This document shows positions 1,444-63,138 of a stretch of DNA of 64,000 nt, piece after piece. Origin of the DNA: an uncultured Candidatus Saccharibacteria bacterium (GTDB taxonomy: Bacteria > Patescibacteriota > Doudnabacteria > UBA920). The stretch is from positions 7,399 to 71,398 of the forward strand of contig CAZACP010000004.1 of NCBI GenBank assembly GCA_964483665.1, given 5' to 3'. Under the pieces are notes generated by a model. It saw only the letters and a list, made by a program, of their open reading frames with translations. It ran no database searches and was not told where the DNA came from. How positions within the stretch are numbered: position 1 is the stretch's first letter; every line of letters begins with the position of its first letter. Position numbers and translations under genes: made by a program.

Positions 1444-1504
1444 ATTGCTCCCTCTTGTATCTTTTTTCCCGACTACTCATTTAAGCAGAGAGAGAGAGAG
1501 ATTT

Positions 1505-1550
1505 GTCAATCCAAAAAACCGCCCCTCCGCCAGTTGGCGGATCAAGGGAC
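1505..1550. terminator. Bidirectional rho-independent terminator-like hairpin containing CCGCCAGTTGGCGG palindrome
   Basis: The sequence is aaaaaaccgcccctccgccagttggcggatcaagggacggttttt: a stem with an A-run before it and a T-run after it. It is downstream of the rplJ-rplL unit on the minus strand. Confidence 0.5.
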
Positions 1551-5719: not shown

Positions 5720-6187
5720 ATGGAAACAAACCTCCAAAAATCTACTTGGATGAAGAAAAAATATTTAGCTTACGGCATTATTCCGGCTTTTGCTTTAGCC
5801 TTAGCCGGGGCGGGCGTAGCCTCCGCCCATGGATTTGGTTTTGGTATGAGTAATTTAACTCCGCAGCAAATTGCGCAAAACCAAACTGACCGCTTCACTA
5901 AACAGGCCGCGCTTTTAGGAGTCAGCGTGGACGAAGTAAAAACGGCTTGGGCCAAAGGCCAGACCTTGCAGGAACTGGCAAATTCCAAAGGCATAACCGC
6001 CGAGCAACTAAAAGCTAAAATGCAGGCGCAAATGCAGGAACAACAAAAAGCGCATTTGCAGGCTTTGGTTGACCAAGGCGTAATAACCCAAGACCAAATG
6101 AACCAACGCCTTGAATTTGAAAAAAACAACCAGGGCAAAGGCTTTGGCAAGCGCGGTATGCGCGGAATGGGTATGATGGGCTTTTAG
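5720..6187 (+). CDS. Secreted Gln/Ala-rich protein (signal peptide)
   Basis: RBS aaagga 8 nt upstream. The signal peptide is LAYGIIPAFALALAGAGVASA, the body is a helical Q-rich region and the C-terminus is Gly/Met-rich. It is part of the ECF sigma neighbourhood. Confidence 0.5.
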   Translation: METNLQKSTWMKKKYLAYGIIPAFALALAGAGVASAHGFGFGMSNLTPQQIAQNQTDRFTKQAALLGVSVDEVKTAWAKGQTLQELANSKGITAEQLKAKMQAQMQEQQKAHLQALVDQGVITQDQMNQRLEFEKNNQGKGFGKRGMRGMGMMGF

Positions 6188-6203
6188 ATTTAAACAATAT
6201 TAA

Positions 6204-6241
6204 CTCTCTCTCCAAGACTTGGAGAGAGCCGGAGAGAGATT
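6204..6241. repeat. Family A palindromic element (CTCTCTCCAAGACTTGGAGAGAG core)
   Basis: It shares its core with the copies at 24627, 45092, 45512 and 63043 and with the intragenic copies. Confidence 0.7.
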
Positions 6242-14789: not shown

Positions 14790-16523
14790 TTATCTTGTTT
14801 CTCTTGTCGGAGGGATTTGGAAATAATTAACCAAATACTGCGCCAGCTGGCCAAAAGCCGGTGCCGCGGTGCTTTCCGCAAACTTTACTGTTTTTGGCTT
14901 GTCTATACGAACAAGCATTAAAAATTTTGGGTCTTCCACGGGACCAAAGCCAATAAAGGTGCCTATGTTTACATTTTCTTCATATCCAAGGCCGTTAATT
15001 TTAGGAACCTGGGCTGTGCCGGTCTTCCCCGCAATATAGTAGCCAGGAACACCAGCTCTTTTTCCGTGTCCGTTTTCCACGACATTTACCATCATGGCGG
15101 TTACGGTATTGGCGGTTTGAGCAGAAATTATTTGCCTTACTTCCTTAACTTTGGTGTCAGTTCTTTGGCCTTCCGGAGAAATTCTACTGGCAACAATATA
15201 TGGCTTAAGCATCTTGCCTGAATTTGGAAATGCGGTAAAGGCTTGTATGAGCTGTATGGGCGTTACTGTTAAACCCTGGCCAAAACTGGCTGTTGCGAAG
15301 TTTACATTAATATTTGCCTTTAGGTTGTCTAAATTACCTTTTCTCTCCATTAACTCAATCCCGGTTTTTTCACCAAAACCAAATTTTTTTACGTATTCTA
15401 AAAATTTTTGATTCCCGATTTGGTCTTTAACAAAAATCAAGCCCGTATTTAAAGATTCTTCCAGTACTTGTGTCATTGTCTGCAGGCCCCTTGGTTTTGG
15501 GTCAGAATTTTTTATAGTTTTGTCATCTATTTTTACAAACCCCTCGTCCACAAAAGTCGTATCCGGAGTTATTTTGCCTTCGTTTAAAGCCGCGGCCATG
15601 GTTAAAGGTTTAAATACGCTTCCTGGTTCATAAGAACCTATGGTGGCTTCGTTGTTAAAAGCGGCCGGGTCAGTTACTTCGCTGTATTTATTTGGGTCAA
15701 AATCTGGGAAACCGGCCATAGCCAAAATTTTTCCGGTTTTTGGGTCAGCGATTATTACCGTCCCGCTAGTCGCCTCATTTTTTTCCACCGTTTCTTTTAA
15801 AACTTTTTGAGCCTCGTACTGGATATTTTTGTCTATGGTTAAAATTAGAGAGTCACCGTCTTTTGCGGCATCCAGCTGCCTATTGCCGCCAAAAATCCAG
15901 GCTCCGCTTATATCGCCCTCCTGTTTTAAAACTCCTTCTTTTCCGGCTAATTCACTTTCAAAAAAACTTTCAAGCCCGTAAACCCCTTGCTTTGTATCGC
16001 CCTTATAGCCAACAAATCCCAGCACCTGGGAAAGTAAGGATCCTTGCGGATAGTACCTAAAACCTTCGTGGTCAAAATATATACCGCTTAACTTTATTTC
16101 CTTAATTTTATTTACTTCTTCATCGCTGAGCTGTTTTTTTAAAACCACATATTTTTTTTGCTTGTTTGCCAGCTTGTTTAAAAGCTCGTTATGTTCTAAA
16201 GACAAGACCGAAGAAAGACTGGCTGCTGCTAAAACCGGATTTTGAATCTCGCCCGGTACGGCATAAACCAGCGGTTTTTGAATATTGGTAGCCACAGGCA
16301 AAAGCTGGTCGGTCGAGTTTTCAATTAAATTTATTTCCCCCCTTGTGGGCAAAAGTTTTAAAACCATATTCCTTTGCGCTTCCGCCCTGGCTTTACTCTC
16401 CTTGCCGCGAACTATTTGCAAATATCCAAGCCGTAAAACAATTATAAAAAAACATACTATAAAAAAAGCAGCCAATAAACTGCTTCTTAGGTCTAATGGA
16501 TTTTTAACCTTTCTCTGCACCAT
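14790..16523 (-). CDS. ftsI: Penicillin-binding protein (FtsI/PBP2-type transpeptidase)
   Basis: N-terminal TM helix. The motifs are SVFKP (SxxK) and KTGTAQ (KTG). It is positioned after ftsL in the dcw cluster. Confidence 0.85.
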   Translation of the reverse strand: MVQRKVKNPLDLRSSLLAAFFIVCFFIIVLRLGYLQIVRGKESKARAEAQRNMVLKLLPTRGEINLIENSTDQLLPVATNIQKPLVYAVPGEIQNPVLAAASLSSVLSLEHNELLNKLANKQKKYVVLKKQLSDEEVNKIKEIKLSGIYFDHEGFRYYPQGSLLSQVLGFVGYKGDTKQGVYGLESFFESELAGKEGVLKQEGDISGAWIFGGNRQLDAAKDGDSLILTIDKNIQYEAQKVLKETVEKNEATSGTVIIADPKTGKILAMAGFPDFDPNKYSEVTDPAAFNNEATIGSYEPGSVFKPLTMAAALNEGKITPDTTFVDEGFVKIDDKTIKNSDPKPRGLQTMTQVLEESLNTGLIFVKDQIGNQKFLEYVKKFGFGEKTGIELMERKGNLDNLKANINVNFATASFGQGLTVTPIQLIQAFTAFPNSGKMLKPYIVASRISPEGQRTDTKVKEVRQIISAQTANTVTAMMVNVVENGHGKRAGVPGYYIAGKTGTAQVPKINGLGYEENVNIGTFIGFGPVEDPKFLMLVRIDKPKTVKFAESTAAPAFGQLAQYLVNYFQIPPTRETR

Positions 16524-17078: not shown

Positions 17079-17175
17079 TTTTAATTTTTGCTTGTCCGTC
17101 TAAATGTCCCGCCCAGGCGGGACTTTTGACGAGCTTTTGTTTTTTAGTTAATTGTTAATCGTCAATTGTTAATTG

Positions 17176-18153
17176 TTACAGCTTCACTATTGCCCTTAAT
17201 TTAGCGGGCTTTGAGCGAGGATTATTTTTTAATTCGTTTTCAGAAGCAGTTACTATTTTTTTGGTTAATATTTTTCCTTGAGGATTTTTGCCACACACAC
17301 ATTGAGGGAAATCTATTGGGCATACGCAGCCTTTACTTAAGCTATTAAAGTATTGTTTTACTATTCTGTCTTCAAGCGAATGGAAGCTTACTATTACTAG
17401 CCTGCCGCCCGGGTTTAAAAGGTCAAAACTTTTTGGCAAAAACTCTTCTAAGGCTTCCAGCTCATGGTTAACCGCTATTCTTAAGGCTTGAAATATTCTT
17501 CTGGCTGAATCATCGGCGCGATGTTTTACAGGCTTAGGAAGTGAATCATGGATTATTTGATAGAGTTCTGTTGTATAGCGGATTTGGCTCTTAGATCTTG
17601 ATTCTTGGATCTTCCTTGCTATCTGGCGGCTAAACTTTTCCTCACCGTAATCGCTAAATATTTTACTAAGCTCCTGTTCGCTTCTGTTATTTAGTAAAAA
17701 ACTTGCGTCTTCGGGTTTAGTTTGATCAAACCGCATGTCTAGCGGCTCTTTTTTCTGAAAGCTAAATCCCCGCCCAGACTGGTCAAGTTCATATGACGAA
17801 AGTCCCAAATCTGCAACAATGCCTGAAATATTATTAAACTCATGTTCTTTTGTTATTTTGTTTATGTTTTGAAAATTGCCGTGCACCGCTATCACTCCCT
17901 CTCCCTCTGGGAGAGGGCCGGGGTGAGGGTGTTTGATATTTGTCCGCCAGTTTGCGGATTGAAATTTGAAATTCTCAATCGCATCCTTGTCCAAATCTAT
18001 AACCAACAACTTGCCGCCCGGAGATATTTTTTGCAAGATCGTCTTACTATACCCTCCTCCGCCTAGCGTCGCGTCGACAAAATTCTCACCGGGCTTAGGG
18101 TTAAGAAAGTAAATAACTTCCTCAAGTAATACTGGAATATGTTCATAATTCAT
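17176..18153 (-). CDS. rsmH: 16S rRNA (cytosine1402-N4)-methyltransferase RsmH/MraW
   Basis: MNYEHIPVLLEEV...DATLGGGGYS and a C-terminal FHSLEDRIVK. It contains an in-frame repeat-derived insert. Confidence 0.85.
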   Translation of the reverse strand: MNYEHIPVLLEEVIYFLNPKPGENFVDATLGGGGYSKTILQKISPGGKLLVIDLDKDAIENFKFQSANWRTNIKHPHPGPLPEGEGVIAVHGNFQNINKITKEHEFNNISGIVADLGLSSYELDQSGRGFSFQKKEPLDMRFDQTKPEDASFLLNNRSEQELSKIFSDYGEEKFSRQIARKIQESRSKSQIRYTTELYQIIHDSLPKPVKHRADDSARRIFQALRIAVNHELEALEEFLPKSFDLLNPGGRLVIVSFHSLEDRIVKQYFNSLSKGCVCPIDFPQCVCGKNPQGKILTKKIVTASENELKNNPRSKPAKLRAIVKL

Positions 18154-24035: not shown

Positions 24036-24314
24036 TTAAAACCGAACAGCCTTTAGCTCCAATATTAATGCATTGTCAATAATAAAATCCACAATATTTC
24101 CTGTGTCCCCGATTATTACTTCTTTCTTATACTTAATACCATTTTCTGAAAATTTTTTCTCTAGCAACTTACTATATTGTTTCTCCTTAGCATATGGACC
24201 TAATTCTTTATAAACTTCAATCAATAAACCGTTTATTTTATAGCTCAAATCCCCGTACAAAAAATCTACCTTCAGTTTCTTCGTTTCTGTAGTTTTCTGT
24301 AGGTTATTACTCAT
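24036..24314 (-). CDS. GxxExxY family protein (PD-(D/E)XK-like), C-terminally truncated paralogue
   Basis: FLYGDLSYKINGLLIEVYKELGPYAKEKQYSKLLEKKF is about 60% identical to the 39534..39923 protein, but it stops at LKAVRF and lacks the last 35 aa. Confidence 0.65.
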   Translation of the reverse strand: MSNNLQKTTETKKLKVDFLYGDLSYKINGLLIEVYKELGPYAKEKQYSKLLEKKFSENGIKYKKEVIIGDTGNIVDFIIDNALILELKAVRF

Positions 24315-24595: not shown

Positions 24596-24626
24596 ATTTT
24601 TGTTTCCTTAGCTCTTTCCTTATTTT

Positions 24627-24670
24627 TTCCCTCTCCAAGACTTGGAGAGGGTTAGGGAAAGGTTGATGAT
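24627..24670. repeat. Family A element (CCCTCTCCAAGACTTGGAGAGGG TTAGGGAAAGGTTG)
   Basis: Matches the cores at 63043 and 6204. Confidence 0.7.
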
Positions 24671-24763
24671 TTGTAAACTGAGGTAAGTTAACTTATTATA
24701 CCATAAAAAATACAAACACGCCTCTTAAGAGAAAACTCCACTGAGGCGTGCTTAGCAAAAATT

Positions 24764-25534: not shown

Positions 25535-26968
25535 TTACCTTTTAAAACTCTTCCCCGGCCTTATGGAAATATCACCATCGTTATCAACTTCCTTAACTCT
25601 CCCAAAACCTACGCTGTCCCTAAATACTTTCCCTGCCTTTAAAACCGGGGCGTAAGACAAAGTAAATTTGCCGTATTTGGCGTTTACAACATCTATCGCG
25701 CGAGTAAGCGAAGCTTTGGCCGTTTGTTTTTTAAACAAAGACTGCTGAAGAATAAAAGGCTTAAGGCCTGCTACGGTAACGCCTATTAATTTACAATTGG
25801 CGATGATTTTATGTATATCGGTATAATTCTTTATAATATGCCTGGCTTCCCAAAATAAATCCCTTGCGTCAAAAATATCGGTAGACAATTTTGCAGAATG
25901 CCCGTAACTGTTATAATCGCCGTCGCGCACATACGCCACCACAATATTGCCCATTAATTTTTTGCGCCTAAGCCTCTCCCCCACCATTTCGCAAAGCTTG
26001 TATAAAACCGGCTCAAAAAATTCCGGCTTTCTGTATTCCTTAGGCAGAGTATACATATGGCCGATTGATTTTATACTTTCATCAAAATTCACTTTTGCTT
26101 TCCAGCTACCGCTTAACTGTCCCATATGGTGAAGGTGATAGCCGTTAATGCCAAACACTCGCACCAGTTTGCTTAAGGGGTAATCGCGCAGCTCTTTTAA
26201 AGTTTTTATGCCAAGTTCGTTTAACCTTTTTTCCTGCCTTTTGGCTATACCCGGTATGTCGGTAAGTTTAAGACGAGTATAAAGATCTTCTTTGGTTAGA
26301 TTTAAAACCCCATTTGATATTTGAAATTTGATATTTGAAATTAGCACTATTCCATCCGGCTTTTTTAAATCACTCGCAATTTTTGCTAGGAGTTTGTTCT
26401 CCGCAATACCTATGCTGCAAGTTAAATAATCCCCCACTTCTTTTTTCATTCGTTTTTTTATTTCCACAGCTACCCTAACCGCTTCTTGCCAAGGATTGGC
26501 CAATAAATAATCTTTAATTTCTGCCATATAAAAATATGGGTGTTCTATATTTTGAAATTTGGATTTTAAAATTTGTCCGCCAGCTGGCGGATTATTTAAA
26601 AATTTAAAATTTAAAATTGGAAATTTAACATTACAGCTTGCTGTAATGTCCACATACGCTTCATCTATGCTGGCCGGCTCAACAAAATTGCTGTAGTCCC
26701 TTAAAACTTTTAAAAACCGGCGATGATACTCCCTGTAAGCATCGGCCCTTGTATGCACCAAAATAATTTTAGGATACAGCTTTTTAGCTTCCCAGACCGG
26801 CGTGCCGGTCTTTATGCCCCAGCGCTTGGCTTCTATGCTGGCGGCAATAATAATGCCGCCCAAATGTTCGCACACGCCTAAAACCTTGCCGCGGTACTCT
26901 TTATTGTCTTGCTGCTCCACCGAGGCAAAATAGCTGTTCATATCTAAATGCAAAATTACATTTTGCAT
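25535..26968 (-). CDS. dinB: DNA polymerase IV (Y-family)
   Basis: MQNVILHLDMNSYFASVE...SIDEAYVDIT...CSIGIAENKLLAKIAS. It carries two in-frame repeat-derived inserts. Confidence 0.85.
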   Translation of the reverse strand: MQNVILHLDMNSYFASVEQQDNKEYRGKVLGVCEHLGGIIIAASIEAKRWGIKTGTPVWEAKKLYPKIILVHTRADAYREYHRRFLKVLRDYSNFVEPASIDEAYVDITASCNVKFPILNFKFLNNPPAGGQILKSKFQNIEHPYFYMAEIKDYLLANPWQEAVRVAVEIKKRMKKEVGDYLTCSIGIAENKLLAKIASDLKKPDGIVLISNIKFQISNGVLNLTKEDLYTRLKLTDIPGIAKRQEKRLNELGIKTLKELRDYPLSKLVRVFGINGYHLHHMGQLSGSWKAKVNFDESIKSIGHMYTLPKEYRKPEFFEPVLYKLCEMVGERLRRKKLMGNIVVAYVRDGDYNSYGHSAKLSTDIFDARDLFWEARHIIKNYTDIHKIIANCKLIGVTVAGLKPFILQQSLFKKQTAKASLTRAIDVVNAKYGKFTLSYAPVLKAGKVFRDSVGFGRVKEVDNDGDISIRPGKSFKR

Positions 26969-27788: not shown

Positions 27789-27880
27789 ACAAAATTTTAG
27801 TGTTCGACTTCATGGAGAACCTAAAATTTTATCTTAAATACTCAATATTGTTCTCCACGAGGTCGAACAATATTCCGGTT
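27789..27880. repeat. Family H element (AAAATTTTAGTGTTCGACTTCATGGAGAACC + inverted partial copy)
   Basis: Same family as 42511-42552 and 42893-42964. No gene is enclosed. Confidence 0.6.
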
Positions 27881-31502: not shown

Positions 31503-31943
31503 CTAATTTAATTTTGTCATTTCAAGGTCTATTGCTTCATTTACTAGTCTGTCGGCGTCTGAATTTTGGACTCTAGGAACGTGGATGAAATTTACGTTTG
31601 CAAAATTTTTACAAAGTTTTAATACCGTTTCAGCCAGGGGTTTAAGCCCCTGGTCTTTTATTTTATAACGGCCCTGCATTTGCCTGACTATTAACTCACT
31701 ATCCATTCGGATTTCTAGGCTCGCCTTTTCGTTTGAAATTTGAAACTTGTCATTTGAAATTTTAATTGCTTCTTCCAACGCCAAAATCAGAGCCCTATAT
31801 TCCGCCTGGTTATTGGTAGTTTCTCCGATATATTTTTTAAATTCAGCGGTTATTAACCCTTGTTCATTTTTAAAAACCACACCGATCCCCGAAGGGCCTG
31901 GATTCCCCCTAGAGCCGCCATCTGTGTTGATTATTAGTTTCAT
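31503..31943 (-). CDS. rnhA: Ribonuclease HI
   Basis: INTDGGSRGNPGPSGIGVV...TNNQAEYRALILALE...HVPRVQNSDADRLVNEA. It contains an in-frame KISNDKFQISNEK insert. Confidence 0.8.
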   Translation of the reverse strand: MKLIINTDGGSRGNPGPSGIGVVFKNEQGLITAEFKKYIGETTNNQAEYRALILALEEAIKISNDKFQISNEKASLEIRMDSELIVRQMQGRYKIKDQGLKPLAETVLKLCKNFANVNFIHVPRVQNSDADRLVNEAIDLEMTKLN

Positions 31944-32018: not shown

Positions 32019-33746
32019 TTAAGATGATAACTGCCTAATATCTATAATTCTTAACTTTAATTGCTTATTCCCGTTCCATTCATCTTGCAATAATTCACAG
32101 GCTAAATCTAACTCTTGGCCTATTTGTAAACTGCTGTCTTTAGGCCCAAAATTAAAAGCGATGCAGGAAATTTGTCTGTTGCCTAAAGAAATTTTCATTT
32201 GCAAATGCTGTGCTTTTTGTCCCACAGCCCGCTTACTTAATATTTTAGCATTTTTCAGCAAAAATTTTGGTTTCGGGTTGCCAACCCCAAAAGGCTCTAA
32301 GGAAGCAATCAAGTTGTAAGTTGTAAGTTGTAAGTCTTCGGAGGAAAGTTCTGCGTCAATATTTAAAACAGGCCCGTCATCTTCTTCCATATTCTTTTCC
32401 GCAAAATCCAAAACGCTTTGGTAAAATATTTCAAAATTTTCCGTTTGCAAGGTAAGCCCCGCCGCCTGCTTATGCCCGCCATAGCGGATTAAATGCTGGC
32501 CGGAATATTTTAAAGCCTCAACTACATTAAATTCCCCCGCGCTTCTGGCCGACCCGGTCGCTTCAAACTCCCCCTTCTCCAGCACAATTGTGGGTTTATA
32601 AAATTCTTCGGCTAATTTGCCCGCAACTAACCCCACAACGCCTTTATGCCAACTTTCCCCCATTAACACCAAAACCTTCCTGTGAAGTATTCCTTGGGCT
32701 TTTTCTCTCGCTTCGCTCATTATCCGCGCTGTTATTTCCTGCCTTCGCAAATTTATTTCTTCAATATTTTGAGCTTGAATTTTTGCCTTTAAGGGATCGT
32801 TTTCTAACAAAAGTTCCAGGGCAACATTAGCGTGTTCAAGCCTTCCAGCCGCGTTTATCCTTGGTGCAATTACAAAACCTAAGGAATAAGTATCCAGCGG
32901 CTGCTTTGCAGGATCCAGCTTTGCTAAATCCATTAAAGCCCTAAGCCCAACCCACTTTGTTTTAGCTAAAACTTTAAGGCCATACTTAACAAAAATTCTA
33001 TTCTCGCCTATAAGCTTATGACAGTCAGCCACTGTGCCTATAGCCACAAGGTCTAATAGCCACTTTTCCCACCCTTGGGATGATTTCGGATTTCGTCCGC
33101 CAGCTGGCGGATCGGATTTCGGATTTTGCAGCAATGCCTGAGCGAGTTTAAAAGCCACGCCGACCCCAACAATTTGGTCATCCGGATAATTATCGTCTTG
33201 ATTTTTAGGGTTTATAAGCGCTAAAGCGTTTGGTAAATTTCCAATAATTTCATGGTGGTCGGTAATAATTAAGTCTATGTTATTTTCCTTGCACCATTCT
33301 GCGGCATCTACAGAATTTGTGCCGCAGTCCACGGTAATTATTACTTTTGAACCATGTTCTTTAATTTTTTTTAAGGCGTCTAAATTTACCCCGTACCCTT
33401 CCAAAAAACGGTCGGGTATATAACTTTCACAGTCCGCGCCCAAATAATTAAAGGCTTGGCGCAAAACCGCATTAGCGGTTATGGCGTCTGCGTCATAGTC
33501 GCCGTAAATAGTAATTTTTTCTTTATTCTCTATTGCCTGCCATATCCTGTTAACGGCTTTTTCCATATCGCGGAATAAAAACGGGCTATTAAGCCCTGTA
33601 GTATAGTCCGCGTTAATAAATTTTTTTATTTCTTCCGGTTCCTTAAGGCCGCGATCAAAAAGCAATTGCCTTAAAAGGACCGGGTAATCTTTATAAACTT
33701 CTTCCAGTTCTGTCGGAATATTGGGTTTTAATTTCCAAATTTTCAT
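32019..33746 (-). CDS. recJ: Single-stranded-DNA-specific exonuclease RecJ
   Basis: DHH motifs (YGDYDADAITANAVL and IITDHHE) and a DHHA1 domain. It has two in-frame repeat inserts. Confidence 0.85.
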   Translation of the reverse strand: MKIWKLKPNIPTELEEVYKDYPVLLRQLLFDRGLKEPEEIKKFINADYTTGLNSPFLFRDMEKAVNRIWQAIENKEKITIYGDYDADAITANAVLRQAFNYLGADCESYIPDRFLEGYGVNLDALKKIKEHGSKVIITVDCGTNSVDAAEWCKENNIDLIITDHHEIIGNLPNALALINPKNQDDNYPDDQIVGVGVAFKLAQALLQNPKSDPPAGGRNPKSSQGWEKWLLDLVAIGTVADCHKLIGENRIFVKYGLKVLAKTKWVGLRALMDLAKLDPAKQPLDTYSLGFVIAPRINAAGRLEHANVALELLLENDPLKAKIQAQNIEEINLRRQEITARIMSEAREKAQGILHRKVLVLMGESWHKGVVGLVAGKLAEEFYKPTIVLEKGEFEATGSARSAGEFNVVEALKYSGQHLIRYGGHKQAAGLTLQTENFEIFYQSVLDFAEKNMEEDDGPVLNIDAELSSEDLQLTTYNLIASLEPFGVGNPKPKFLLKNAKILSKRAVGQKAQHLQMKISLGNRQISCIAFNFGPKDSSLQIGQELDLACELLQDEWNGNKQLKLRIIDIRQLSS

Positions 33747-33749
33747 TGA

Positions 33750-33830
33750 GTAGTTGGTAGTTGGTAGTTGGTAGTTGGTAGCCCAAATTGCTCCGGCTAC
33801 TTACTACTTTACTACCTACTACTTACTAAA
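33750..33830. repeat. Family D element: (TAGTTGG)4 array - spacer - (CTACTTA)n array
   Basis: Read directly from the sequence. The second copy is at 62515-62590. Confidence 0.65.
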
Positions 33831-39533: not shown

Positions 39534-39923
39534 TTAAATATTATTTGGATTTAAAACTCTCTTTATTTGTAATCTGGGGACGCGGAAGTTTACTAATAGA
39601 CCTAATTTTAAATTCGTTTGAATTAAATAACGCTTTAACTGATCATATGTTTCTTGTATTAAAAAAGGTACTGTTTTTAATTCTAGAATAATTCTATTTT
39701 CAATAATGAAGTCAGCAATATTACCAGAATCCCCTATCCTAACCTCTCTCTTATAATTCACGGCTCTGTTTTTAAATATAATTTCTATTTTATCGGCTAC
39801 TTGTTTTTCTCTAGCATATGGCCCCAGTTCTTTATGAACCTCAATTAAAATGCCATTGATCTTGTAAGTAAGATCGCCGTACAAAAATTCTGACATCTTT
39901 TTAAACTTAGTTTCTGTAGGCAT
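39534..39923 (-). CDS. GxxExxY family protein (PD-(D/E)XK-like), full length
   Basis: FLYGDLTYKINGILIEVHKELGPYAREKQ....ELKTVPFLIQETYDQLKRYL. Confidence 0.7.
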   Translation of the reverse strand: MPTETKFKKMSEFLYGDLTYKINGILIEVHKELGPYAREKQVADKIEIIFKNRAVNYKREVRIGDSGNIADFIIENRIILELKTVPFLIQETYDQLKRYLIQTNLKLGLLVNFRVPRLQIKRVLNPNNI

Positions 39924-42510: not shown

Positions 42511-42552
42511 GCAAATAATAGTGTTCGACCTTGTGGAGAACCTATTATTTGC
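42511..42552. repeat. Family H element (solo unit GCAAATAATAGTGTTCGACCTTGTGGAGAACCTATTATTTGC)
   Basis: 10-bp flanking stem around the conserved core. Confidence 0.6.
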
Positions 42553-42603: not shown

Positions 42604-42879
42604 TTACACCCATTTACCCCACTCTCCGCTAATTAATTTTCTTTTCTTTTTCTGGCCCCAACCTTTAACTTGCTTTTCTCTAAGTCTTGCTTCTTCCAAA
42701 TTTTCAAATTCTTCAATATAAACTATATTTTTAACTCCGTGCTTCTTGGTATACTCCGAACCTTCTCCAAGCAAATGCTGATTTCCGCGAATATCGTGGT
42801 TCCAAGTCATTCCGGTATAAAAAGTATCGTCCAGGCACTCCACAATATACACATACCATTTCCAGTTTTCTTTGGTCAT
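42604..42879 (-). CDS. GIY-YIG nuclease family protein (second copy)
   Basis: WYVYIVECLDDTFYTGMTWNHDIRGNQHLLGEG...IVYIEEFENLEEARLREKQVKGW. Confidence 0.75.
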   Translation of the reverse strand: MTKENWKWYVYIVECLDDTFYTGMTWNHDIRGNQHLLGEGSEYTKKHGVKNIVYIEEFENLEEARLREKQVKGWGQKKKRKLISGEWGKWV

Positions 42880-42892
42880 TGCTTAAAAATTT

Positions 42893-42964
42893 TAGTGTTC
42901 GAGCTTGTCGAGAACCCAAAATTTTACGTACTTAATAGTATCACAAGGTCGAATAATATTAAGT
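42893..42964. repeat. Family H element (direct copy plus inverted partial copy)
   Basis: ttttagtgttcgagcttgtcgagaacccaaaatttt ... tcacaaggtcgaataatatt. Confidence 0.6.
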
Positions 42965-45091: not shown

Positions 45092-45131
45092 TTCCCTCCC
45101 CTCCTAAGGGGAGGGATTAAGGGAGAGGTTG
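45092..45131. repeat. Family A element (CCCTCCCCTCCTAAGGGGAGGG ATTAAGGGAGAGGTTG)
   Basis: Read directly from the sequence. Confidence 0.65.
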
Positions 45132-45135
45132 TATT

Positions 45136-45501
45136 TTAAAACCCGCATGCTTCTTTTATTTTACTTAAAACTCCTTGAATATTTGTGTCTATTTCATTAT
45201 TCCAAAATCTTAAAACTTTGTAGCCTATTTTTTCTGCGTACTGTTGTTTTCGCTTATCGTAAGCCGATATTTCTTGCTCGCTGTGCTGTCCTCCGTCTGC
45301 CTCCACTAAGAGCATTTTCTCTTTACAACTAAAATCATAAATATACTGTCCAATTTGCATTTGACGCTTAAATTTTAACCCATAAAACCTACCAGCTCTT
45401 AAATAATACCAAAGCTTGCTTTCCCAAGGAGTCTGATTTTTTCTTAGGCTTCGGGAATTGGTTAAATATGGCTCTGGTATAACTCTTTTGGCAGTATCCA
45501 T
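45136..45501 (-). CDS. DUF559 endonuclease-domain protein (Vsr-like fold)
   Basis: YGLKFKRQMQIGQYIYDFSCKEKMLLVEADGGQHS...YKVLRFWNNEI. Confidence 0.75.
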   Translation of the reverse strand: MDTAKRVIPEPYLTNSRSLRKNQTPWESKLWYYLRAGRFYGLKFKRQMQIGQYIYDFSCKEKMLLVEADGGQHSEQEISAYDKRKQQYAEKIGYKVLRFWNNEIDTNIQGVLSKIKEACGF

Positions 45502-45511
45502 ATGTTTTTAG

Positions 45512-45620
45512 TCTCTCCCCTTTTAAGGGGAGATGTCACGAGTGTATCCGAGTGACAAAGAGGTTGTATACTACATCTACTGCAACCTCTCCCTAACCCT
45601 CTCCTTAAAAGGAGAGGGTA
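45512..45620. repeat. Family A composite element (4 hairpins: CTCCCC/GGGGAG, GTCAC/GTGAC, GAGGTTG/CAACCTC, CCCTCTCC/GGAGAGGG)
   Basis: Same stem set as 63043-63138 in inverted orientation, but with different loops. Confidence 0.7.
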
Positions 45621-47578: not shown

Positions 47579-48262
47579 TCACATGTCGATTATTTCGTTA
47601 AAGTAACTAGGGATCAAACTGGCACCGCCAACCAAAAGCCCGTCTACATTTCTTTGTTCCAAAAATCCTTTGGCATTTGTAGGACTTACGCTGCCACCAT
47701 ATAAAACTTTTTTTACACCATAACGATTTTTTATAAAAAGGCCAATTGTCTCTGCGTGTTCAGGGCTAGCCACTTTGCCTGTGCCAATTGCCCAAACCGG
47801 CTCATAAGCGACCACAACTTTAGAAACTTCTATTCCTTTTAAATCCGTATCTAGTTGCTGTTTTATTACATCGGTTACTTCTAAATCGTCCTGCTCAACT
47901 TTTGTTCCAAAACCAACGCATACTACCGGCGTAATCGCATTGGCCAACGCCGCCTTCGTTTTGGCATTTATCATTTCGTCAGTTTCGCCGGTCGCTCTTT
48001 TCTCGCTATGACCTATTATGCTGTATTTAATTTTCAAAGACTTTAATTGTAAAGGGGAAACTTGTCCGGTAAAAGCACCCTTCTCCTCCCAAAAACAGTC
48101 TTGGGAACCTAAGTTAGGATATTGGATATTAGATACGTAGATGGTAGGCGGGCACAAAACCACGGTATTTTTTTTTGTGCGGGATATAGCAGCCGCAAGC
48201 TTCTGCGCTTCCTTTAAAGTGGTTGGGTTTAATTTCCAGTTGGCGATAATTAGTTTTTTCAT
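47579..48262 (-). CDS. tpiA: Triosephosphate isomerase
   Basis: IIANWKLN...IGHSEKR...GGSV. Confidence 0.9.
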   Translation of the reverse strand: MKKLIIANWKLNPTTLKEAQKLAAAISRTKKNTVVLCPPTIYVSNIQYPNLGSQDCFWEEKGAFTGQVSPLQLKSLKIKYSIIGHSEKRATGETDEMINAKTKAALANAITPVVCVGFGTKVEQDDLEVTDVIKQQLDTDLKGIEVSKVVVAYEPVWAIGTGKVASPEHAETIGLFIKNRYGVKKVLYGGSVSPTNAKGFLEQRNVDGLLVGGASLIPSYFNEIIDM

Positions 48263-49589: not shown

Positions 49590-49973
49590 CTAATTCTTTT
49601 TCTTATCTAAATAATTTTGTAAAAGTATTTGCGCGGCAAGGCTGTCTAAATCTTTTTTACTTCCGCTTATATTTTTTGCCATAACAGATGTTAATCGCTC
49701 GTCTATAGTTTCTACCGGCAAACCTGTCTTTTTTGTAATTTGCAATTTGAAACCGGAAATTTCTTCCGTCTTTTTTGTCATTTCCCCGCTCATATTTAGC
49801 GGCCAGCCCAAAACAATTTGGGTAATTTGATGTTCCTCGATAACTCCCGTAATTTTCTCCCAAAATTCCTTTGGCGACAAAATAGTTAACTCCCGCGCAA
49901 AAGTTTTTGTCTCATCAGAAATTGCCAAACCAATCCTCTTTGAGCCATAGTCGATCCCTAGGATTTTAGACAT
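49590..49973 (-). CDS. ruvX: Holliday-junction resolvase-like protein RuvX/YqgF
   Basis: ILGIDYGSKRIGLAISD... Confidence 0.85.
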   Translation of the reverse strand: MSKILGIDYGSKRIGLAISDETKTFARELTILSPKEFWEKITGVIEEHQITQIVLGWPLNMSGEMTKKTEEISGFKLQITKKTGLPVETIDERLTSVMAKNISGSKKDLDSLAAQILLQNYLDKKKN

Positions 49974-61220: not shown

Positions 61221-62510
61221 TTAAAAGCCCTCATAGTCATGCATTGTCAACTGTGCTTCGATTTTCTTGATTATTTCTATAACCACGGACACCACAATCA
61301 ATAACGAAGTACCGCCCAAAGTTAAGGCCTTGGTTCCGGTTAAATTTTGGGCAACTAGAGGCAGAATAGCAATAATTGCTAAAAATACTGCACCGGCTAA
61401 AGTAATGCGGTTAAGCACAGAAGACAAATAGTCAGCAGTTTGAGCTCCGGGCCTAAGTCCCGGAATGAAGCCGCCATTTTTTTGCACATTTTCGGCAATT
61501 TCCTGAGGGTTAAAGACTACGGCAGTATAAAAATAAGTAAAGCCTAGTATCATAAGGAAGTAAACAATGCCGTAAAACCAGGTGCCGGTGTCATTAAACA
61601 AGGCAATGGTTTTTTGCGCATAGTTAGCAATAAGTGCGCTTTTTGCATTTACAAAGAACTGGGCTATCATTGCGGGAAACAGCATTATGGAAATAGCAAA
61701 AATTATAGGAATAACTCCGGCTTGGTTAAGGCGCAAAGGCAAATGGGTATTAACGCCGCCAAAAAGCCTGTTGCCCCTAACGCGCTTAGCGTAAGCAACC
61801 GGGATATTGCGCTGAGCCTCTGTTACCAAAACCACTCCGGCAATAACGGCTAAGAATACCAAGACAAAGCCGACAATAGTAGGAACTGCGTCCGGATTAC
61901 CCTGATAAATTTGGTAAGCTTGGGAAATGGCGCTCGGGACTCTGGATACAATACCGGCAAAAATAACCAAAGAAATTCCATTGCCAATGTCGAATTCAGA
62001 CATAATTTCACCAATCCACATTATTAACATAGTGCCGGCAGTTACAGAAAGCAAAACCAAAAACCATTGAAAAGGAGAAAAAGTTCCTAAAATTGATCCG
62101 GCTCCCTGGCTGGAAAGAAGCCTAATGGTGCCAAAAGCCTGAAGCGGGGCAAGCGGAATGGTTAAATAGCGGGTGTACTGGTTAAGCTGAGCCCTGCCGG
62201 CTTCCCCACCTTCCTTTTGCATTTCAGCAAAAGAAGGAACTATTATGGTTAAAAGCTGCATTATAATGCTGGCAGTAATGTACGGGCCAACGCCAAGCAT
62301 GGCAATAGAAAAATTAGTCAAACCTCCGCCGGAAAAAACATCAAGCAAATTTAAAAACTGACTCTGCTGAAAAAAAGCTTTAAGCCCGGTTGGGTCTATA
62401 CCCGGAATGGGTATGTGAGTTAAAACCCGCGTAACTAACAAAAGACCAAGCACAATTAAAATTTTGTTGCGTAGGTCTTTGGTTTTCCAAATAAGTAGGA
62501 TTTTGTTCAT
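61221..62510 (-). CDS. secY: Preprotein translocase subunit SecY
   Basis: 429 aa with 10 TM helices. It follows rplO. Confidence 0.9.
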   Translation of the reverse strand: MNKILLIWKTKDLRNKILIVLGLLLVTRVLTHIPIPGIDPTGLKAFFQQSQFLNLLDVFSGGGLTNFSIAMLGVGPYITASIIMQLLTIIVPSFAEMQKEGGEAGRAQLNQYTRYLTIPLAPLQAFGTIRLLSSQGAGSILGTFSPFQWFLVLLSVTAGTMLIMWIGEIMSEFDIGNGISLVIFAGIVSRVPSAISQAYQIYQGNPDAVPTIVGFVLVFLAVIAGVVLVTEAQRNIPVAYAKRVRGNRLFGGVNTHLPLRLNQAGVIPIIFAISIMLFPAMIAQFFVNAKSALIANYAQKTIALFNDTGTWFYGIVYFLMILGFTYFYTAVVFNPQEIAENVQKNGGFIPGLRPGAQTADYLSSVLNRITLAGAVFLAIIAILPLVAQNLTGTKALTLGGTSLLIVVSVVIEIIKKIEAQLTMHDYEGF

Positions 62511-62514
62511 TATG

Positions 62515-62590
62515 TAGTTGGTAGTTGGTAGTTGATAGTTGGTAGCCGAACATTGCCTGACTACTTACTACTTACTACTTCACTAATCGC
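62515..62590. repeat. Family D element (TAGTTGG array - spacer - CTACTTA array)
   Basis: It overlaps the last 8 codons of rplO. Confidence 0.65.
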
Positions 62591-63019: not shown

Positions 63020-63042
63020 AAATAGATATATTCCTTATAGTT

Positions 63043-63138
63043 TCCCTCTCCAAGACTTGGAGAGGGTTAGGGAGAGGTTGAAAATTATTAACCTCTCTGT
63101 CACCTTTCGGGTGACATCTCCCCAAGCTTTCGGGAGAA
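63043..63138. repeat. Family A composite element in the rpsE-rplO spacer (where rpmD/L30 would normally be)
   Basis: ccctctccaagacttggagaggg ttag ggagaggttg..aacctctct gtcacctttcgggtgac atctcccc.. Confidence 0.7.

What the first reader, a model, noticed from the sequence alone, without database searches (positions are those of the whole stretch)
31733..31775. RNase HI with in-frame KFQISN-type insert shared with DinB and RsmH
RnhA has KISNDKFQISNEK between conserved blocks, encoded by TTTGAAATTTGAAACTTGTCATTTGAAATTT (family C tandem ATTTGAAA). DinB has ISNIKFQISNG and RsmH has NFKFQS from the same motif. One short repeat generates the same peptide in three unrelated enzymes.
Basis: seen in the sequence. 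Interest (0 to 1): 0.65.

Follow-up and report, generated by a model that had tools for sequence, protein, structure and literature searches.

The report
In-frame 7-base repeats inside housekeeping genes
The peptide KFQISN shared by three unrelated enzymes is the translation of a short tandem 7-base DNA repeat (AAATTTC), one of many such repeats that this candidate-phyla-radiation (CPR) bacterium and its relatives carry in frame in surface loops of essential genes, sometimes interrupted by an 18-base palindrome that also occurs in other phyla.

Summary
RNase HI (31503..31943, minus strand) contains K61-K73 KISNDKFQISNEK. DinB contains ISNIKFQISNG and RsmH contains NFKFQ. All three are encoded by the same DNA motif.

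The repeat unit is 7 nt (AAATTTC on the coding strand), not 8. Three units make 21 nt, which is read in all three frames and gives the cyclic peptide K-F-Q-I-S-N-F. This explains the identical peptide in unrelated enzymes.

Period-7 arrays are strongly over-represented: 13 observed against 0.5 expected in the window, and 7 against 0.35 inside coding sequence. Other periods are not. The arrays mostly occupy length-variable loops.

At the same RnhA, RsmH, DinB and RecJ sites, related Patescibacteria carry heptamer arrays with different units. Minimal RnhA orthologues lack about 9 residues there.

In DinB, RsmH and RecJ the arrays are interrupted by an 18-nt palindrome, ATCCGCCAGCTGGCGGAC. It is stop-free in all frames and encodes PPAGG or SANWRT. 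The same palindrome is found in at least 120 loci of the reference genome collection across several phyla, often in frame.

Best reading: these are DNA-level microsatellite-like arrays plus a nested small dispersed palindrome, tolerated in loops rather than selected as protein motifs. The closest analogues are cyanobacterial heptamer repeats with nested small repeats, and Rickettsia palindromic elements. How the arrays are generated remains inferred.

The parts
31732..31762 (-). Heptamer array in RNase HI. On the coding strand it reads AAATTTC AAATGAC AAGTTTC AAATTTC AAA..., and it encodes most of K61-K73 KISNDKFQISNEK (peptide = 31725..31763).
   Evidence: (period 7, 4.4 copies). The AF2 model places it at the end of helix 44-66 plus loop 67-74, the lowest-confidence part of the model.
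31503..31943 (-). RNase HI (RnhA-type, archaeal/LC11-like) gene that holds the array.
   Evidence: PF00075, PF13456; 3u3g, E=1e-37.
26309..26342 (-). Heptamer array in DinB site 2: AATTTCA AATATCA AATTTCA AATATCA AATGGGG, encoding ISNIKFQISNG. This is a 10-aa insertion relative to PDB 7yll.
   Evidence: (period 7 x4.4; period 14 x2.2 at 100%).
26549..26626 (-). DinB site 1 module: AT-rich heptamer tracts (AAATTTT, AAAATCC, AAATTTC) on both sides of the 18-nt palindrome (26575-26592). It encodes KFPILNFKFLNNPPAGGQILKSKFQN.
   Evidence: D9, I6; (folds, z=-2.8).
17896..17973 (-). RsmH composite insert N61-G86. It consists of about 2 units of AAATTTC (NFKFQ), a palindrome copy ATCCGCAAACTGGCGGAC (17942-17959, SANWRT), AAATATC AAACACC, and then a second palindrome CCCTCTCCCAGAGGGAGAGGG (17897-17917, GPLPEGEG).
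   Evidence: (14-17 aa gap against 1m6y and 3tka).
33082..33126 (-). RecJ site 1 module: AAATCCG AAATCCG + palindrome (33095-33112) + GAAATCC GAAATCA, encoding NPKSDPPAGGRNPKS.
   Evidence: D9; (17-aa gap against 8y30).
32308..32339 (-). RecJ site 2: a perfect (AACTTAC) x3.6 array encoding DLQLTTYNL, in a region of conserved length.
   Evidence: 100% matches. Orthologues carry other heptamer units at this site.
1526..1541 (.). Intergenic copy of the palindrome (TCCGCCAGTTGGCGGA), nested in a larger terminator-like hairpin followed by a T-run.
48114..48137 (-). Heptamer array (AATATCC-type) inside the triosephosphate isomerase gene.
49729..49753 (-). Weak heptamer array (AAATTGC AAATTAC ...) inside the RuvX gene.

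Best explanation
The segment KISNDKFQISNEK of RNase HI is the translation of a short tandem array of a 7-nt unit (AAATTTC on the coding strand).

Because 7 is not a multiple of 3, three units (21 nt) are read in all three frames. They give the cyclic 7-residue peptide K-F-Q-I-S-N-F. Any gene holding the same unit on that strand therefore receives the same peptide, whatever its frame. The opposite strand, (GAAATTT)n, contains TGA in every frame, so only one orientation can survive inside a gene.

These arrays are a DNA-level feature of this Patescibacteria (Doudnabacteria-like) lineage. They behave like heptanucleotide microsatellites. The inferred mechanism is that they arise and are homogenised by slipped-strand mispairing or local gene conversion. 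They persist in coding sequence only where the extra residues fall in length-tolerant surface loops and the frame is kept.

They are most likely neutral or nearly neutral passengers rather than functional protein motifs.

A second element is superimposed on the arrays in DinB, RsmH and RecJ. It is an 18-nt perfect or near-perfect palindrome, ATCCGCCAGCTGGCGGAC (6 codons), stop-free in all frames. It behaves like a very small dispersed, probably mobile, repeat.

Shown: the arrays, their excess over chance, their positions, their presence with different units at orthologous sites, and the distribution of the palindrome. Inferred: slippage or gene conversion as the generator, neutrality, and mobility of the palindrome.
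For: (1) Period 7 is specific.
- The window holds 13 arrays of at least 3 units against 0.5 expected in dinucleotide shuffles. Periods 4-15 other than 7 show no clear excess: 5, 8 and 9 have only a few arrays, not clearly above shuffles.
- Inside coding sequence, with codon-shuffle controls, there are 7 against 0.35 (maximum 2). Periods 6 and 9 are not enriched.
- Syntenic relatives have 3-7 arrays per 10 kb.

(2) The periodicity is in the DNA, not only in the protein.
- At the RnhA loop, L007 has a perfect (AATATCC) x4.4, L005 has (CAAATCA) x4, and L008 has AAATTTC AAATGAG AAATTTA AAATTTC.
- Further orthologues carry AACTTAC, AAGGGCT and AAATCTT units at the same loop.

(3) The sites are variable loops.
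- The RnhA loop length ranges from 18 to 56 aa among 120 orthologues. Identity at a lag of 7 residues is 25.8%, against 3-10% at other lags.
- The RsmH loop shows 20% at lag 7, against 5-11% at other lags.
- Relative to solved structures there are gaps at RnhA, RsmH, DinB and RecJ site 1.
- In the AF2 model the RnhA insert is the least confident segment and lies between helix 44-66 and strand 75-80.

(4) Orthologous sites carry different homogeneous units.
- DinB site 2: AATTTCA/AATATCA, GCAGTGA and TTACGAG in different genomes.
- RecJ site 2: AACTTAC, GATGAAT.TATCAGT and TGTCAAT.
- This pattern needs homogenisation within arrays.

(5) The chemistry of the inserted peptides is not conserved. 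Examples are ISNFQFPISN, ILNLKSEILN, LTTHNSQLTT and GLRAKGLGLS.

(6) Heptamers are reported as the most over-represented long simple-sequence repeats in bacteria, with polymerase slippage proposed as the cause. This is Mrazek 2007, as summarised in PMC4692102 and PMC4679880.

(7) The palindrome.
- There are 4 copies in the window against 0.08 expected.
- Close relatives have heptamer tracts without it at DinB site 1 and RecJ site 1.
- It matches at least 120 reference-genome loci.
- Some copies interrupt otherwise continuous heptamer tracts, for example L067.
- About 30 copies lie in long open frames, mostly in the PPAGG frame.
Against: - No copy-number polymorphism was seen. Four contigs from independent samples are 99.98-100% identical to the window over 6-20 kb.
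- Some arrays are identical between species whose proteins are only about 77% identical (RecJ site 2, window and L007). The arrays are therefore not hypermutable.
- Simple slippage by single units would shift the frame.
- Loop length classes (+5, +8 and +9 aa) are not multiples of 7 aa.
- The same units recur at unrelated loci and in different genomes: AAATTTC in RnhA, DinB and RsmH; AACTTAC in RecJ here and in RnhA of L130; AAGGGCT at two loci of L131. This could point to dispersal or a favoured sequence rather than purely local slippage.
- No clean empty site exists for the palindrome. Differences from relatives are 12 nt or larger, not exactly 18 nt.
- Neutrality was not tested.
Confidence: 0.62

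Rival explanations
1. The arrays and the palindrome together form one very small mobile element, comparable to a MITE, an RPE or an SDR, that inserts into genes. On this view the heptamer tracts are brought by the element, or are built up as 7-bp target-site duplications through repeated insertion and excision. The three enzymes share the peptide because they were hit by the same element.
For: - Three of the four palindrome copies in the window sit between heptamer tracts inside genes.
- The palindrome is flanked by direct 7-mers in many genomes of several phyla. Examples are L067 AAAAATC[18]AAAAATC, L092, L078 and L030.
- 36 of 101 flank pairs share 7-mers in direct orientation, against 17-21% in controls.
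- Exact 18/18 identity across phyla suggests mobility.
- The same units recur at unrelated loci.
- Small stand-alone nuclease genes (PDDEXK_3 x2, GIY-YIG, DUF559) lie in the window.
Against: - Most arrays, including those in RnhA, DinB site 2 and RecJ site 2, have no palindrome.
- Flanking units differ between palindrome copies (AAATTTT, AAATTTC, AAATCCG).
- Strict period-7 arrays adjacent to the palindrome are only weakly enriched: 6 of 101 against 0-4 in controls.
- No transposase or REP-associated tyrosine transposase (RAYT) was linked to the element.
- No clean empty or filled site pair was found.
- There are only 6 hits in 2.9 million viral contigs.
Confidence: 0.22
2. The heptamer arrays are functional at the nucleic-acid level. 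Candidate roles are binding sites on mRNA or DNA for a protein with a 7-nt footprint (cold-shock/OB-fold type), translational control, or programmed -1 frameshifting, since A_AAT_TTC fits the X_XXY_YYZ slippery pattern and a hairpin lies downstream in some cases.
For: - Arrays persist at orthologous sites while their unit sequence changes.
- Similar arrays lie directly upstream of start codons: CAACTAC x4 before recJ in the window and in L007. This resembles the TAACTGA repeats of Beggiatoaceae, for which translational regulation was proposed (PMC4679880).
- The pure arrays are unstructured as RNA (z = +0.5 to +0.9).
Against: - Units are highly diverse, from AT-rich to AAGGGCT, so a single sequence-specific binder is unlikely.
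- A frameshift in RnhA, DinB, RsmH or RecJ would truncate housekeeping enzymes.
- The slippery phase and a hairpin at the right spacing do not coincide in RsmH.
- Minimal orthologues do without any array.
Confidence: 0.08
3. The peptides are selected protein features, such as a helix extension or an interaction loop. The DNA periodicity would then be a by-product of AT-rich codon usage.
For: - ISN.KFQISN-like peptides recur in RnhA orthologues (6 of 120) and RsmH orthologues (11 of 120).
- Loop length classes are discrete.
- AF2 extends helix 44-66 into the first half of the insert.
Against: - Three unrelated enzymes would have to need the same peptide.
- The chemistry of the insert varies freely among orthologues.
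- Perfect 7-nt DNA repeats, such as L007 x4.4 and L132 (TGTCAAT) x4, are not explained by codon bias.
- Codon-shuffle controls do not reproduce the arrays.
- The insert has the lowest pLDDT of the model.
Confidence: 0.05
4. The similarity is a chance result of low-complexity, AT-rich sequence.
For: The genome is about 39% GC, and the 9-mer ATTTGAAAT alone is only mildly enriched: 6 matches against 2.8 expected.
Against: - The 14-mer gives 6 matches against 0.47 expected.
- Period-7 arrays number 13 against 0.5 expected.
- Inside coding sequence there are 7 against 0.35 with codon shuffles.
Confidence: 0.02

Closest known systems
Heptanucleotide simple-sequence repeats of bacteria (Mrazek, Guo and Shah 2007, as summarised in PMC4692102 and PMC4679880). 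Examples are GGGAATC in Xanthomonas, GGGGA(T/C)T in Nostoc and TAACTGA in Beggiatoaceae.
   Same: - Tandem 7-nt units in 2-6 copies.
- Specific excess of period 7 over other periods.
- Many copies next to start codons or in intergenic regions.
- Variation in sequence and length between related species at the same loci.
   Different: - The described cases are intergenic and usually have one dominant unit per genome.
- Repeats inside genes were reported to favour units that are multiples of three.
- Here many different units occur, and about half of the arrays are in frame inside conserved housekeeping genes, at sites shared across a large part of the Patescibacteria.
Cyanobacterial STRR heptamer repeats (Mazel 1990) and small dispersed repeats (SDR) nested in heptamer tracts (Elhai et al. 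2008, Genome Res 18:1484). Cited from memory; the paper is not held in the library.
   Same: - A very small hairpin-forming repeat (about 20 nt) embedded within tandem heptamer tracts.
- Many dispersed copies.
- No encoded protein.
- Unknown mechanism of spread.
   Different: - Different phylum and different sequences (STRR units are CCCCAGT, TTGGTCA and CAACAGT).
- The SDRs are 21-27 nt, against 18 nt here.
- As far as I recall, SDRs are mostly non-coding, whereas these are translated.
- Sequence relatedness could not be tested.
Rickettsia palindromic elements (RPE; Ogata et al. 2000; mentioned in PMC1779305 and PMC10969869).
   Same: - Palindromic repeats inserted in frame into unrelated conserved protein genes.
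- The insertions add a peptide segment at positions compatible with the fold.
   Different: - RPEs are about 100-150 bp, belong to defined sequence families and are restricted to Rickettsia.
- Here the units are 7-nt arrays of 20-50 nt plus an 18-nt palindrome.
- Here the same loops carry different repeats in different lineages.
REP/REPIN elements mobilised by RAYT transposases (PMC3116915).
   Same: Short GC-rich palindromes dispersed in many copies, including nested and intergenic terminator-like copies.
   Different: - REPs are extragenic by definition, are organised as doublets and are linked to a RAYT gene.
- No RAYT gene was looked for or seen here.
- Three of the four copies in the window are intragenic and translated.

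Membership tests
Bacterial heptanucleotide simple-sequence repeat (microsatellite-like array) | Head-to-tail tandem copies of a 7-nt unit | tested here: met
   TRF gives period 7 at 31732-31762 (4.4 copies), 26312-26342 (4.4), 32311-32335 (3.6 copies, 100% matches) and other sites. One search lists the arrays.
Bacterial heptanucleotide simple-sequence repeat (microsatellite-like array) | Over-representation relative to composition-matched random sequence, specific to the period | tested here: met
   13 against 0.5 in the window. 7 against 0.35 in coding sequence with codon shuffles. Other periods are not clearly enriched.
Bacterial heptanucleotide simple-sequence repeat (microsatellite-like array) | Copy-number or sequence variation between strains or species at the same locus (evidence of slippage) | tested here: inconclusive
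   Between species, units and lengths differ at orthologous sites. Between samples of the same population there is no variation. Some arrays are conserved between species (RecJ site 2, window and L007).
Cyanobacterial STRR/SDR system | Small hairpin repeat nested inside tandem heptamer tracts | tested here: met
   The palindrome lies between heptamer tracts in DinB, RsmH and RecJ and in other genomes such as L067, L078, L030 and L092. Overall, the statistical association is modest.
Cyanobacterial STRR/SDR system | Sequence membership in the STRR1-3 or SDR1-8 families; cyanobacterial host | not tested
   The host is a Patescibacteria bacterium, and the units found here differ from the STRR units as I recall them.
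Rickettsia palindromic elements (RPE) | In-frame insertion of a palindromic repeat into unrelated conserved ORFs | tested here: met
   PPAGG or SANWRT segments in DinB, RecJ and RsmH, with gaps against PDB homologues. About 30 further in-frame copies occur in other genomes.
Rickettsia palindromic elements (RPE) | Element length of about 100-150 bp and membership in the RPE sequence families | tested here: not met
   The palindrome is 18 nt and whole modules are 45-90 nt. The host is not Rickettsia.
REP/REPIN-RAYT | Extragenic location, doublet organisation and an associated RAYT gene | tested here: not met
   Three of the four copies are intragenic and no doublets are present. Only 10 of about 78 ORFs were scanned against Pfam and none was a RAYT, so the absence of RAYT is untested genome-wide.
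RNase HI (host gene) | RNase H fold with the DEDD catalytic residues | tested here: met
   PF00075. D8, E48, D81 and D131 are invariant in alignment A1. The AF2 model has pLDDT 92. PDB 3u3g matches at E=1e-37.

The most novel reading that the evidence does not exclude
An ultra-small mobile element, the 18-bp palindrome ATCCGCCAGCTGGCGGAC (exactly six codons, stop-free in every frame and on both strands), spreads within and between bacterial phyla. It inserts into heptamer tracts, including those inside essential genes. The heptamer tracts themselves would be written by its activity, for example as accumulated 7-bp target duplications or by hairpin-induced template switching. That would be a previously undescribed class of mobile DNA that edits short peptide loops into conserved proteins without any element-encoded protein.
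Probability: 0.15. Interest if true: 0.8.

Novelty: new variant of a known kind. Interest (0 to 1): 0.55.

Why it matters
This finding shows that non-triplet (7-nt) microsatellite-like arrays can live inside essential genes of the reduced genomes of CPR/Patescibacteria. They persist at the same loops across a wide radiation while their sequence turns over.

Several practical and conceptual points follow:
- It gives a simple rule for why unrelated proteins share odd low-complexity peptides: a 7-nt unit read in three frames.
- It warns annotators and structure predictors that such segments are DNA-driven, not functional motifs.
- It supplies natural markers of insertion-tolerant loops.
- It makes the unexplained bacterial preference for heptamer repeats testable. 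Coding arrays are constrained, datable by orthology and abundant in metagenomes.
- The 18-nt palindrome, found in frame in housekeeping genes of several phyla, is a candidate for one of the smallest dispersed or mobile repeats known.

Tried and rejected
- Strain polymorphism. Gene-length differences between L001 and L002/L003 (DinB 477 against 468 aa) looked like indels. They are only different start-codon calls, because the DNA is 99.98-100% identical to the window.
- Phylogeny of gain and loss. A neighbour-joining tree of 120 RnhA orthologues with the loop masked intersperses insert-less and insert-bearing sequences. A 130-aa protein resolves too poorly to decide between one gain and many.
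- Programmed -1 frameshifting on A_AAT_TTC plus a hairpin. Rejected because the phase and spacing do not fit in RsmH, units are diverse, and the products would be truncated enzymes.
- A long-hairpin or MITE reading of the DinB module (repeat finder I6, 38-nt arms at 76%). The arm complementarity is largely a property of AAATTT-type units. The RecJ and RsmH flanks are direct repeats, not inverted.
- tRNA origin of the palindrome. Several hits lie in tRNA-like fragments, but ARAGORN does not call them as tRNAs, and real tRNA-Met genes sit next to them. Left unexplained.
- Phage carriage of the palindrome. There are only 6 hits among viral contigs.
- Literature. No paper in the library holds the palindrome string. 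No description of heptamer arrays in CPR coding sequences was found. Elhai 2008 could not be read.
- A strict test for period-7 arrays adjacent to the palindrome across phyla gave only weak enrichment.
Full report
**1. Check of the observation**

The ORF 31503..31943 on the minus strand encodes a 146-aa RNase HI homologue. It matches Pfam PF00075/PF13456 and has 4233 database homologues, the named ones being from Candidatus Doudnabacteria and Patescibacteria. Its best solved relative is 3u3g at E=1e-37. Residues 61-73 read KISNDKFQISNEK, which corresponds to window 31725..31763.

A six-frame peptide search found KFQIS only in this ORF and in the DinB/IMS ORF 25535..26968, where the context is LISNIKFQISNG. 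It found in-frame FKFQ in the RsmH ORF 17176..18153, in the context ENFKFQSANWRT. The 14-mer TTTGAAATTTGAAA with at most one mismatch occurs 6 times against 0.47 expected.

**2. What the repeat is**

On the coding strand the RnhA segment reads AAATTTC AAATGAC AAGTTTC AAATTTC AAACGAA. The DinB segment reads AATTTCA AATATCA AATTTCA AATATCA. TRF calls both period 7 with 4.4 copies. The unit is therefore a heptamer, not the 8-mer ATTTGAAA.

(AAATTTC)3 is AAA TTT CAA ATT TCA AAT TTC, which translates to K F Q I S N F. Because 7 and 3 share no factor, 21 nt pass through all three frames. Any in-frame occurrence therefore yields a cyclic permutation of the same 7-residue peptide. This fully explains the shared peptide. 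The complementary strand, (GAAATTT)n, contains TGA within each 21 nt, so only one orientation can exist within a gene. Both points follow from direct reading of the sequence.

**3. More than chance, and specific to period 7**

Arrays of at least 3 units with at least 85% self-match number 13 for period 7, against 0.5 expected (maximum 2) in dinucleotide shuffles. Periods 4-15 other than 7 show no clear excess. Within coding sequence alone, using codon-shuffled controls, period 7 gives 7 against 0.35 (maximum 2). Periods 6 and 9, which would be frame-neutral, are not enriched.

Of 19 arrays found at a looser threshold, about 11 lie inside genes. These include RnhA, DinB (twice), RsmH, RecJ, TIM, RuvX and PfkB. 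The rest lie at gene edges or between genes.

**4. Orthologue test**

Among the 120 closest RnhA homologues, the segment between the AEY.AL helix and the MDSEL strand is 18 aa long in 26 sequences, which carry no insert (for example IGATH). It is 20, 23, 26 or 27 aa in most others, with the window at 27. It reaches up to 56 aa in a few.

Identity between residues i and i+7 inside this loop is 25.8%, against 3-10% at other lags. Most orthologues therefore carry heptamer-encoded peptides there, but with many different units. Examples are ISNFQFPISN, ILNLKSEILN, LTTHNSQLTT, FTTYNLQLTT, GLRAKGLGLS and VSSFEFRVSS.

DNA of syntenic relatives confirms the 7-nt periodicity:
- L005: (CAAATCA) x4.
- L007: a perfect (AATATCC) x4.4.
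- L008: AAATTTC AAATGAG AAATTTA AAATTTC.
- L130: AACTTAC/AATTTAC.
- L131: (AAGGGCT) x4.
- L132: AAATCTT.

Solved RNase H structures from other phyla align with 4-9 residue gaps at this point. The peptide is thus not part of conserved RNase HI. Equally, it is not a private insertion of this genome.

An AlphaFold2 model has mean pLDDT 92. It places the segment at the end of helix 44-66 and in loop 67-74 before strand 75-80, with the lowest confidence in the protein (66 for residues 61-70). From general knowledge of the RNase H fold, the loop joining helix A to strand 4 lies at the end of these elements away from the catalytic carboxylates. Here these are D8, E48, D81 and D131, all invariant in alignment A1.

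**5. The same holds at the other sites**

- RsmH. The window protein has 14-17 extra residues relative to 1m6y and 3tka. For the orthologue loops that could be parsed, lag-7 identity is 20% against 5-11% at other lags. ENFKFQISNFK-type peptides occur in 11 of 120 orthologues.
- DinB site 2. This is a 10-aa insertion relative to 7yll. It has the same length in the window, L005 and L007 but different homogeneous units: AATTTCA/AATATCA, GCAGTGA x7 and TTACGAG. L008 has two GC-rich hairpins there instead.
- RecJ site 2. The window and L007 have a perfect (AACTTAC) x3.6 in a region of conserved length. L005 has GATGAAT.TATCAGT (period 14), and L008 and L132 have (TGTCAAT)n.

Close relatives share units by descent. 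Examples are RecJ site 2 in the window and L007, and RecJ site 1 in L005 and L007. More distant relatives have other units. Some units recur at unrelated loci: AACTTAC in RecJ here and in RnhA of L130, and AAGGGCT at both RnhA and RecJ site 1 of L131. Homogeneous but different units at one orthologous site require homogenisation within arrays, that is, concerted evolution, or else replacement of the array.

**6. A second element, the 18-nt palindrome**

The repeat finder family D9 and direct reading show ATCCGCCAGCTGGCGGAC in DinB site 1 (26575-26592) and RecJ site 1 (33095-33112). A variant with two mismatches is in RsmH (17942-17959). In each case heptamer units lie on both sides: AAATTTT/AAATTTC, AAATCCG/GAAATCC and AAATTTC/AAATATC. 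A fourth copy is intergenic and nested in a terminator-like hairpin (1526-1541). This makes four good copies against 0.08 expected.

The 18-mer has no stop codon in any frame. It encodes PPAGG in DinB and RecJ, SANWRT in RsmH, or IRQLAD in the third frame. At DinB site 1 and RecJ site 1, L005 and L007 have heptamer tracts without the palindrome. L005 DinB reads KFQISNIQYQ at that position. The length differences are not exactly 18 nt, so no clean empty site is available.

RsmH additionally carries a second palindrome, CCCTCTCCCAGAGGGAGAGGG (GPLPEGEG). It belongs to a family with intergenic copies in the window. As RNA, the pure arrays are unstructured (z = +0.5 to +0.9) and the palindrome modules fold (z = -2.6 to -2.8).

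**7. Distribution of the palindrome**

About 17 would be expected by chance for 596 Gb, by my own calculation. The hits include many AT-rich Patescibacteria (Saccharibacteria, Gottesman-, Davies-, Wolfe-, Moran- and Berkelbacteria), and also Bacteroidota, Bdellovibrionales, Cloacimonadota and Elusimicrobia.

In a subset, the palindrome interrupts an otherwise continuous heptamer tract. Examples are L067 (CAAAATC AAAAATC [18 nt] AAAAATC AAAAATT), L078 (AAATTTC AAATTTC A[...]), L030, L047, L092 and L104. Statistically the association is modest. 36 of 101 flank pairs share 7-mers in direct orientation, against 17-21% in controls. Strict arrays are adjacent in 6 of 101 cases, against 0-4 in controls.

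About 30 copies in AT-rich genomes lie in open frames of at least 200 codons. The PPAGG frame accounts for 17, SASWR for 6 and (I/V)RQLAD for 8. One example is a Saccharibacteria RecJ that reads HHEPAENPPAGGPKALAVINSK, at a different site from the one in the window. Some copies sit in tRNA-like fragments beside tRNA-Met genes. Viral contigs hold only 6 copies.

**8. Mechanism**

Shown:
- The shared peptide is a by-product of a DNA-level heptamer array.
- Such arrays are specifically over-represented.
- They mostly occupy length-variable loops of conserved proteins.
- They persist at orthologous sites with turnover of the unit.
- An 18-nt palindrome is nested in some of them.

Inferred:
- The arrays arise and are homogenised by slipped-strand mispairing or short-tract conversion. 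This is the explanation proposed for the general excess of heptamer repeats in bacteria (Mrazek 2007, as cited in PMC4692102 and PMC4679880).
- In genes, only frame-preserving outcomes on the stop-free strand and in tolerant loops survive.
- The insertions are neutral passengers.

Points against a simple slippage model:
- There is no polymorphism among independent samples.
- Some arrays are conserved between species.
- Loop length classes are not multiples of 7 aa.
- Units are shared between unrelated loci.

The main rival is that the palindrome, possibly together with the tracts, is a very small mobile element. It cannot be excluded and is partly compatible with the best explanation.

**9. 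Comparison with what is known**

The closest known systems are the following:
- Bacterial heptanucleotide simple-sequence repeats. These are intergenic in Xanthomonas, Nostoc and Beggiatoaceae (PMC4692102, PMC4679880).
- Cyanobacterial STRR heptamers with nested small dispersed repeats (Elhai 2008). This is cited from memory because the paper is not held.
- Rickettsia palindromic elements inserted in frame in conserved genes.

This case behaves like a combination of these but is not a member of any sequence-defined family. The host phylum, the unit sequences, the element size (18 nt) and, above all, the in-frame location of non-triplet arrays at conserved hot-spot loops are all different. The literature summarised in PMC4679880 states that intragenic repeats favour units that are multiples of three. 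That makes the coding heptamers here atypical. No paper in the library contains the palindrome string or describes such arrays in CPR genes.

**10. Verdict**

This is a new variant of a known kind, namely heptamer microsatellite-like arrays plus a nested mini-palindrome, here translated within housekeeping genes across the Patescibacteria. Interest is moderate, at 0.55. The peptide coincidence itself is explained and is ordinary. The lineage-wide coding heptamer hot spots and the cross-phylum in-frame 18-mer are unusual and open to direct testing.

Noticed in passing
window 33745-33830 and 62506-62585; L007 8129-8192: Intergenic heptamer-hairpin-heptamer modules lie immediately upstream of start codons. 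On the gene strand they read (AGTAAGT)n - GTAGCC..GGCTAC hairpin - (CAACTAC)x4, followed by ATG of recJ. A second copy lies upstream of gene 61221..62510. The module is conserved upstream of recJ in L007. The two arms are imperfectly complementary, with G-T pairs on the + strand.
   Followed up: partly
window 17897-17917, 6185-6241, 24608-24679, 63023-63094, 45094-45115, 45597-45618: A second GC-rich palindrome family (CCCTCTCC..GGAGAGGG). It is translated as GPLPEGEG inside RsmH and is otherwise intergenic. Related peptides (PSPLTPLPKGEGN, SPPPPLILRGGEE) fill the RnhA loop of other Patescibacteria.
   Followed up: partly
window 24036..24314, 39534..39923, 45136..45501, 42604..42879 (all minus strand): Small stand-alone nuclease-type genes are scattered among housekeeping genes: two PDDEXK_3, one DUF559 and one GIY-YIG. 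The DUF559 and GIY-YIG genes are flanked by palindromic or direct repeats (D3 at 42512-42552 and 42886-42926, also 27791-27831). They are possible selfish genes or trans-acting factors for the small repeats.
   Followed up: partly
L075 73-90 and 574-591; L111; L127; L085; L106: In Bacteroidota and other MAGs, the 18-nt palindrome sits inside tRNA-like sequences, directly after ..GGGCTCAT and before the T-arm. ARAGORN does not call these as tRNAs, and they lie next to intact tRNA-Met genes. The meaning is unknown. Possibilities are disrupted tRNA copies, integration scars or an intron-like insert.
   Followed up: partly
L008 about 15060-15130 (DinB site 2): Where the window has a heptamer array, this relative has two different GC-rich hairpins in frame (GGCGGCCATTGGCCGCC and GGAGGCCGATGGCCTCC). 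The same loop therefore accepts different repeat types in different lineages.
   Followed up: no
window 1-64000: Nearly all long ORFs are on the minus strand, and GC skew is negative throughout; the cumulative skew falls monotonically. The window probably lies within one replichore with strong gene-strand bias.
   Followed up: no
window 1487-1501 and 1560-1610: An (AG)7.5 dinucleotide run, and ATCCGAA-type heptamer-like repeats, lie next to the intergenic palindrome copy and the terminator-like hairpin.
   Followed up: no
window 17145-17179; L007 1455-1482 and 14818-14851: TTAACAA/TTGACGA heptamer arrays recur at gene boundaries, directly upstream of start codons, in both the window and a relative. 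This resembles the start-codon-proximal TAACTGA repeats of Beggiatoaceae (PMC4679880).
   Followed up: no
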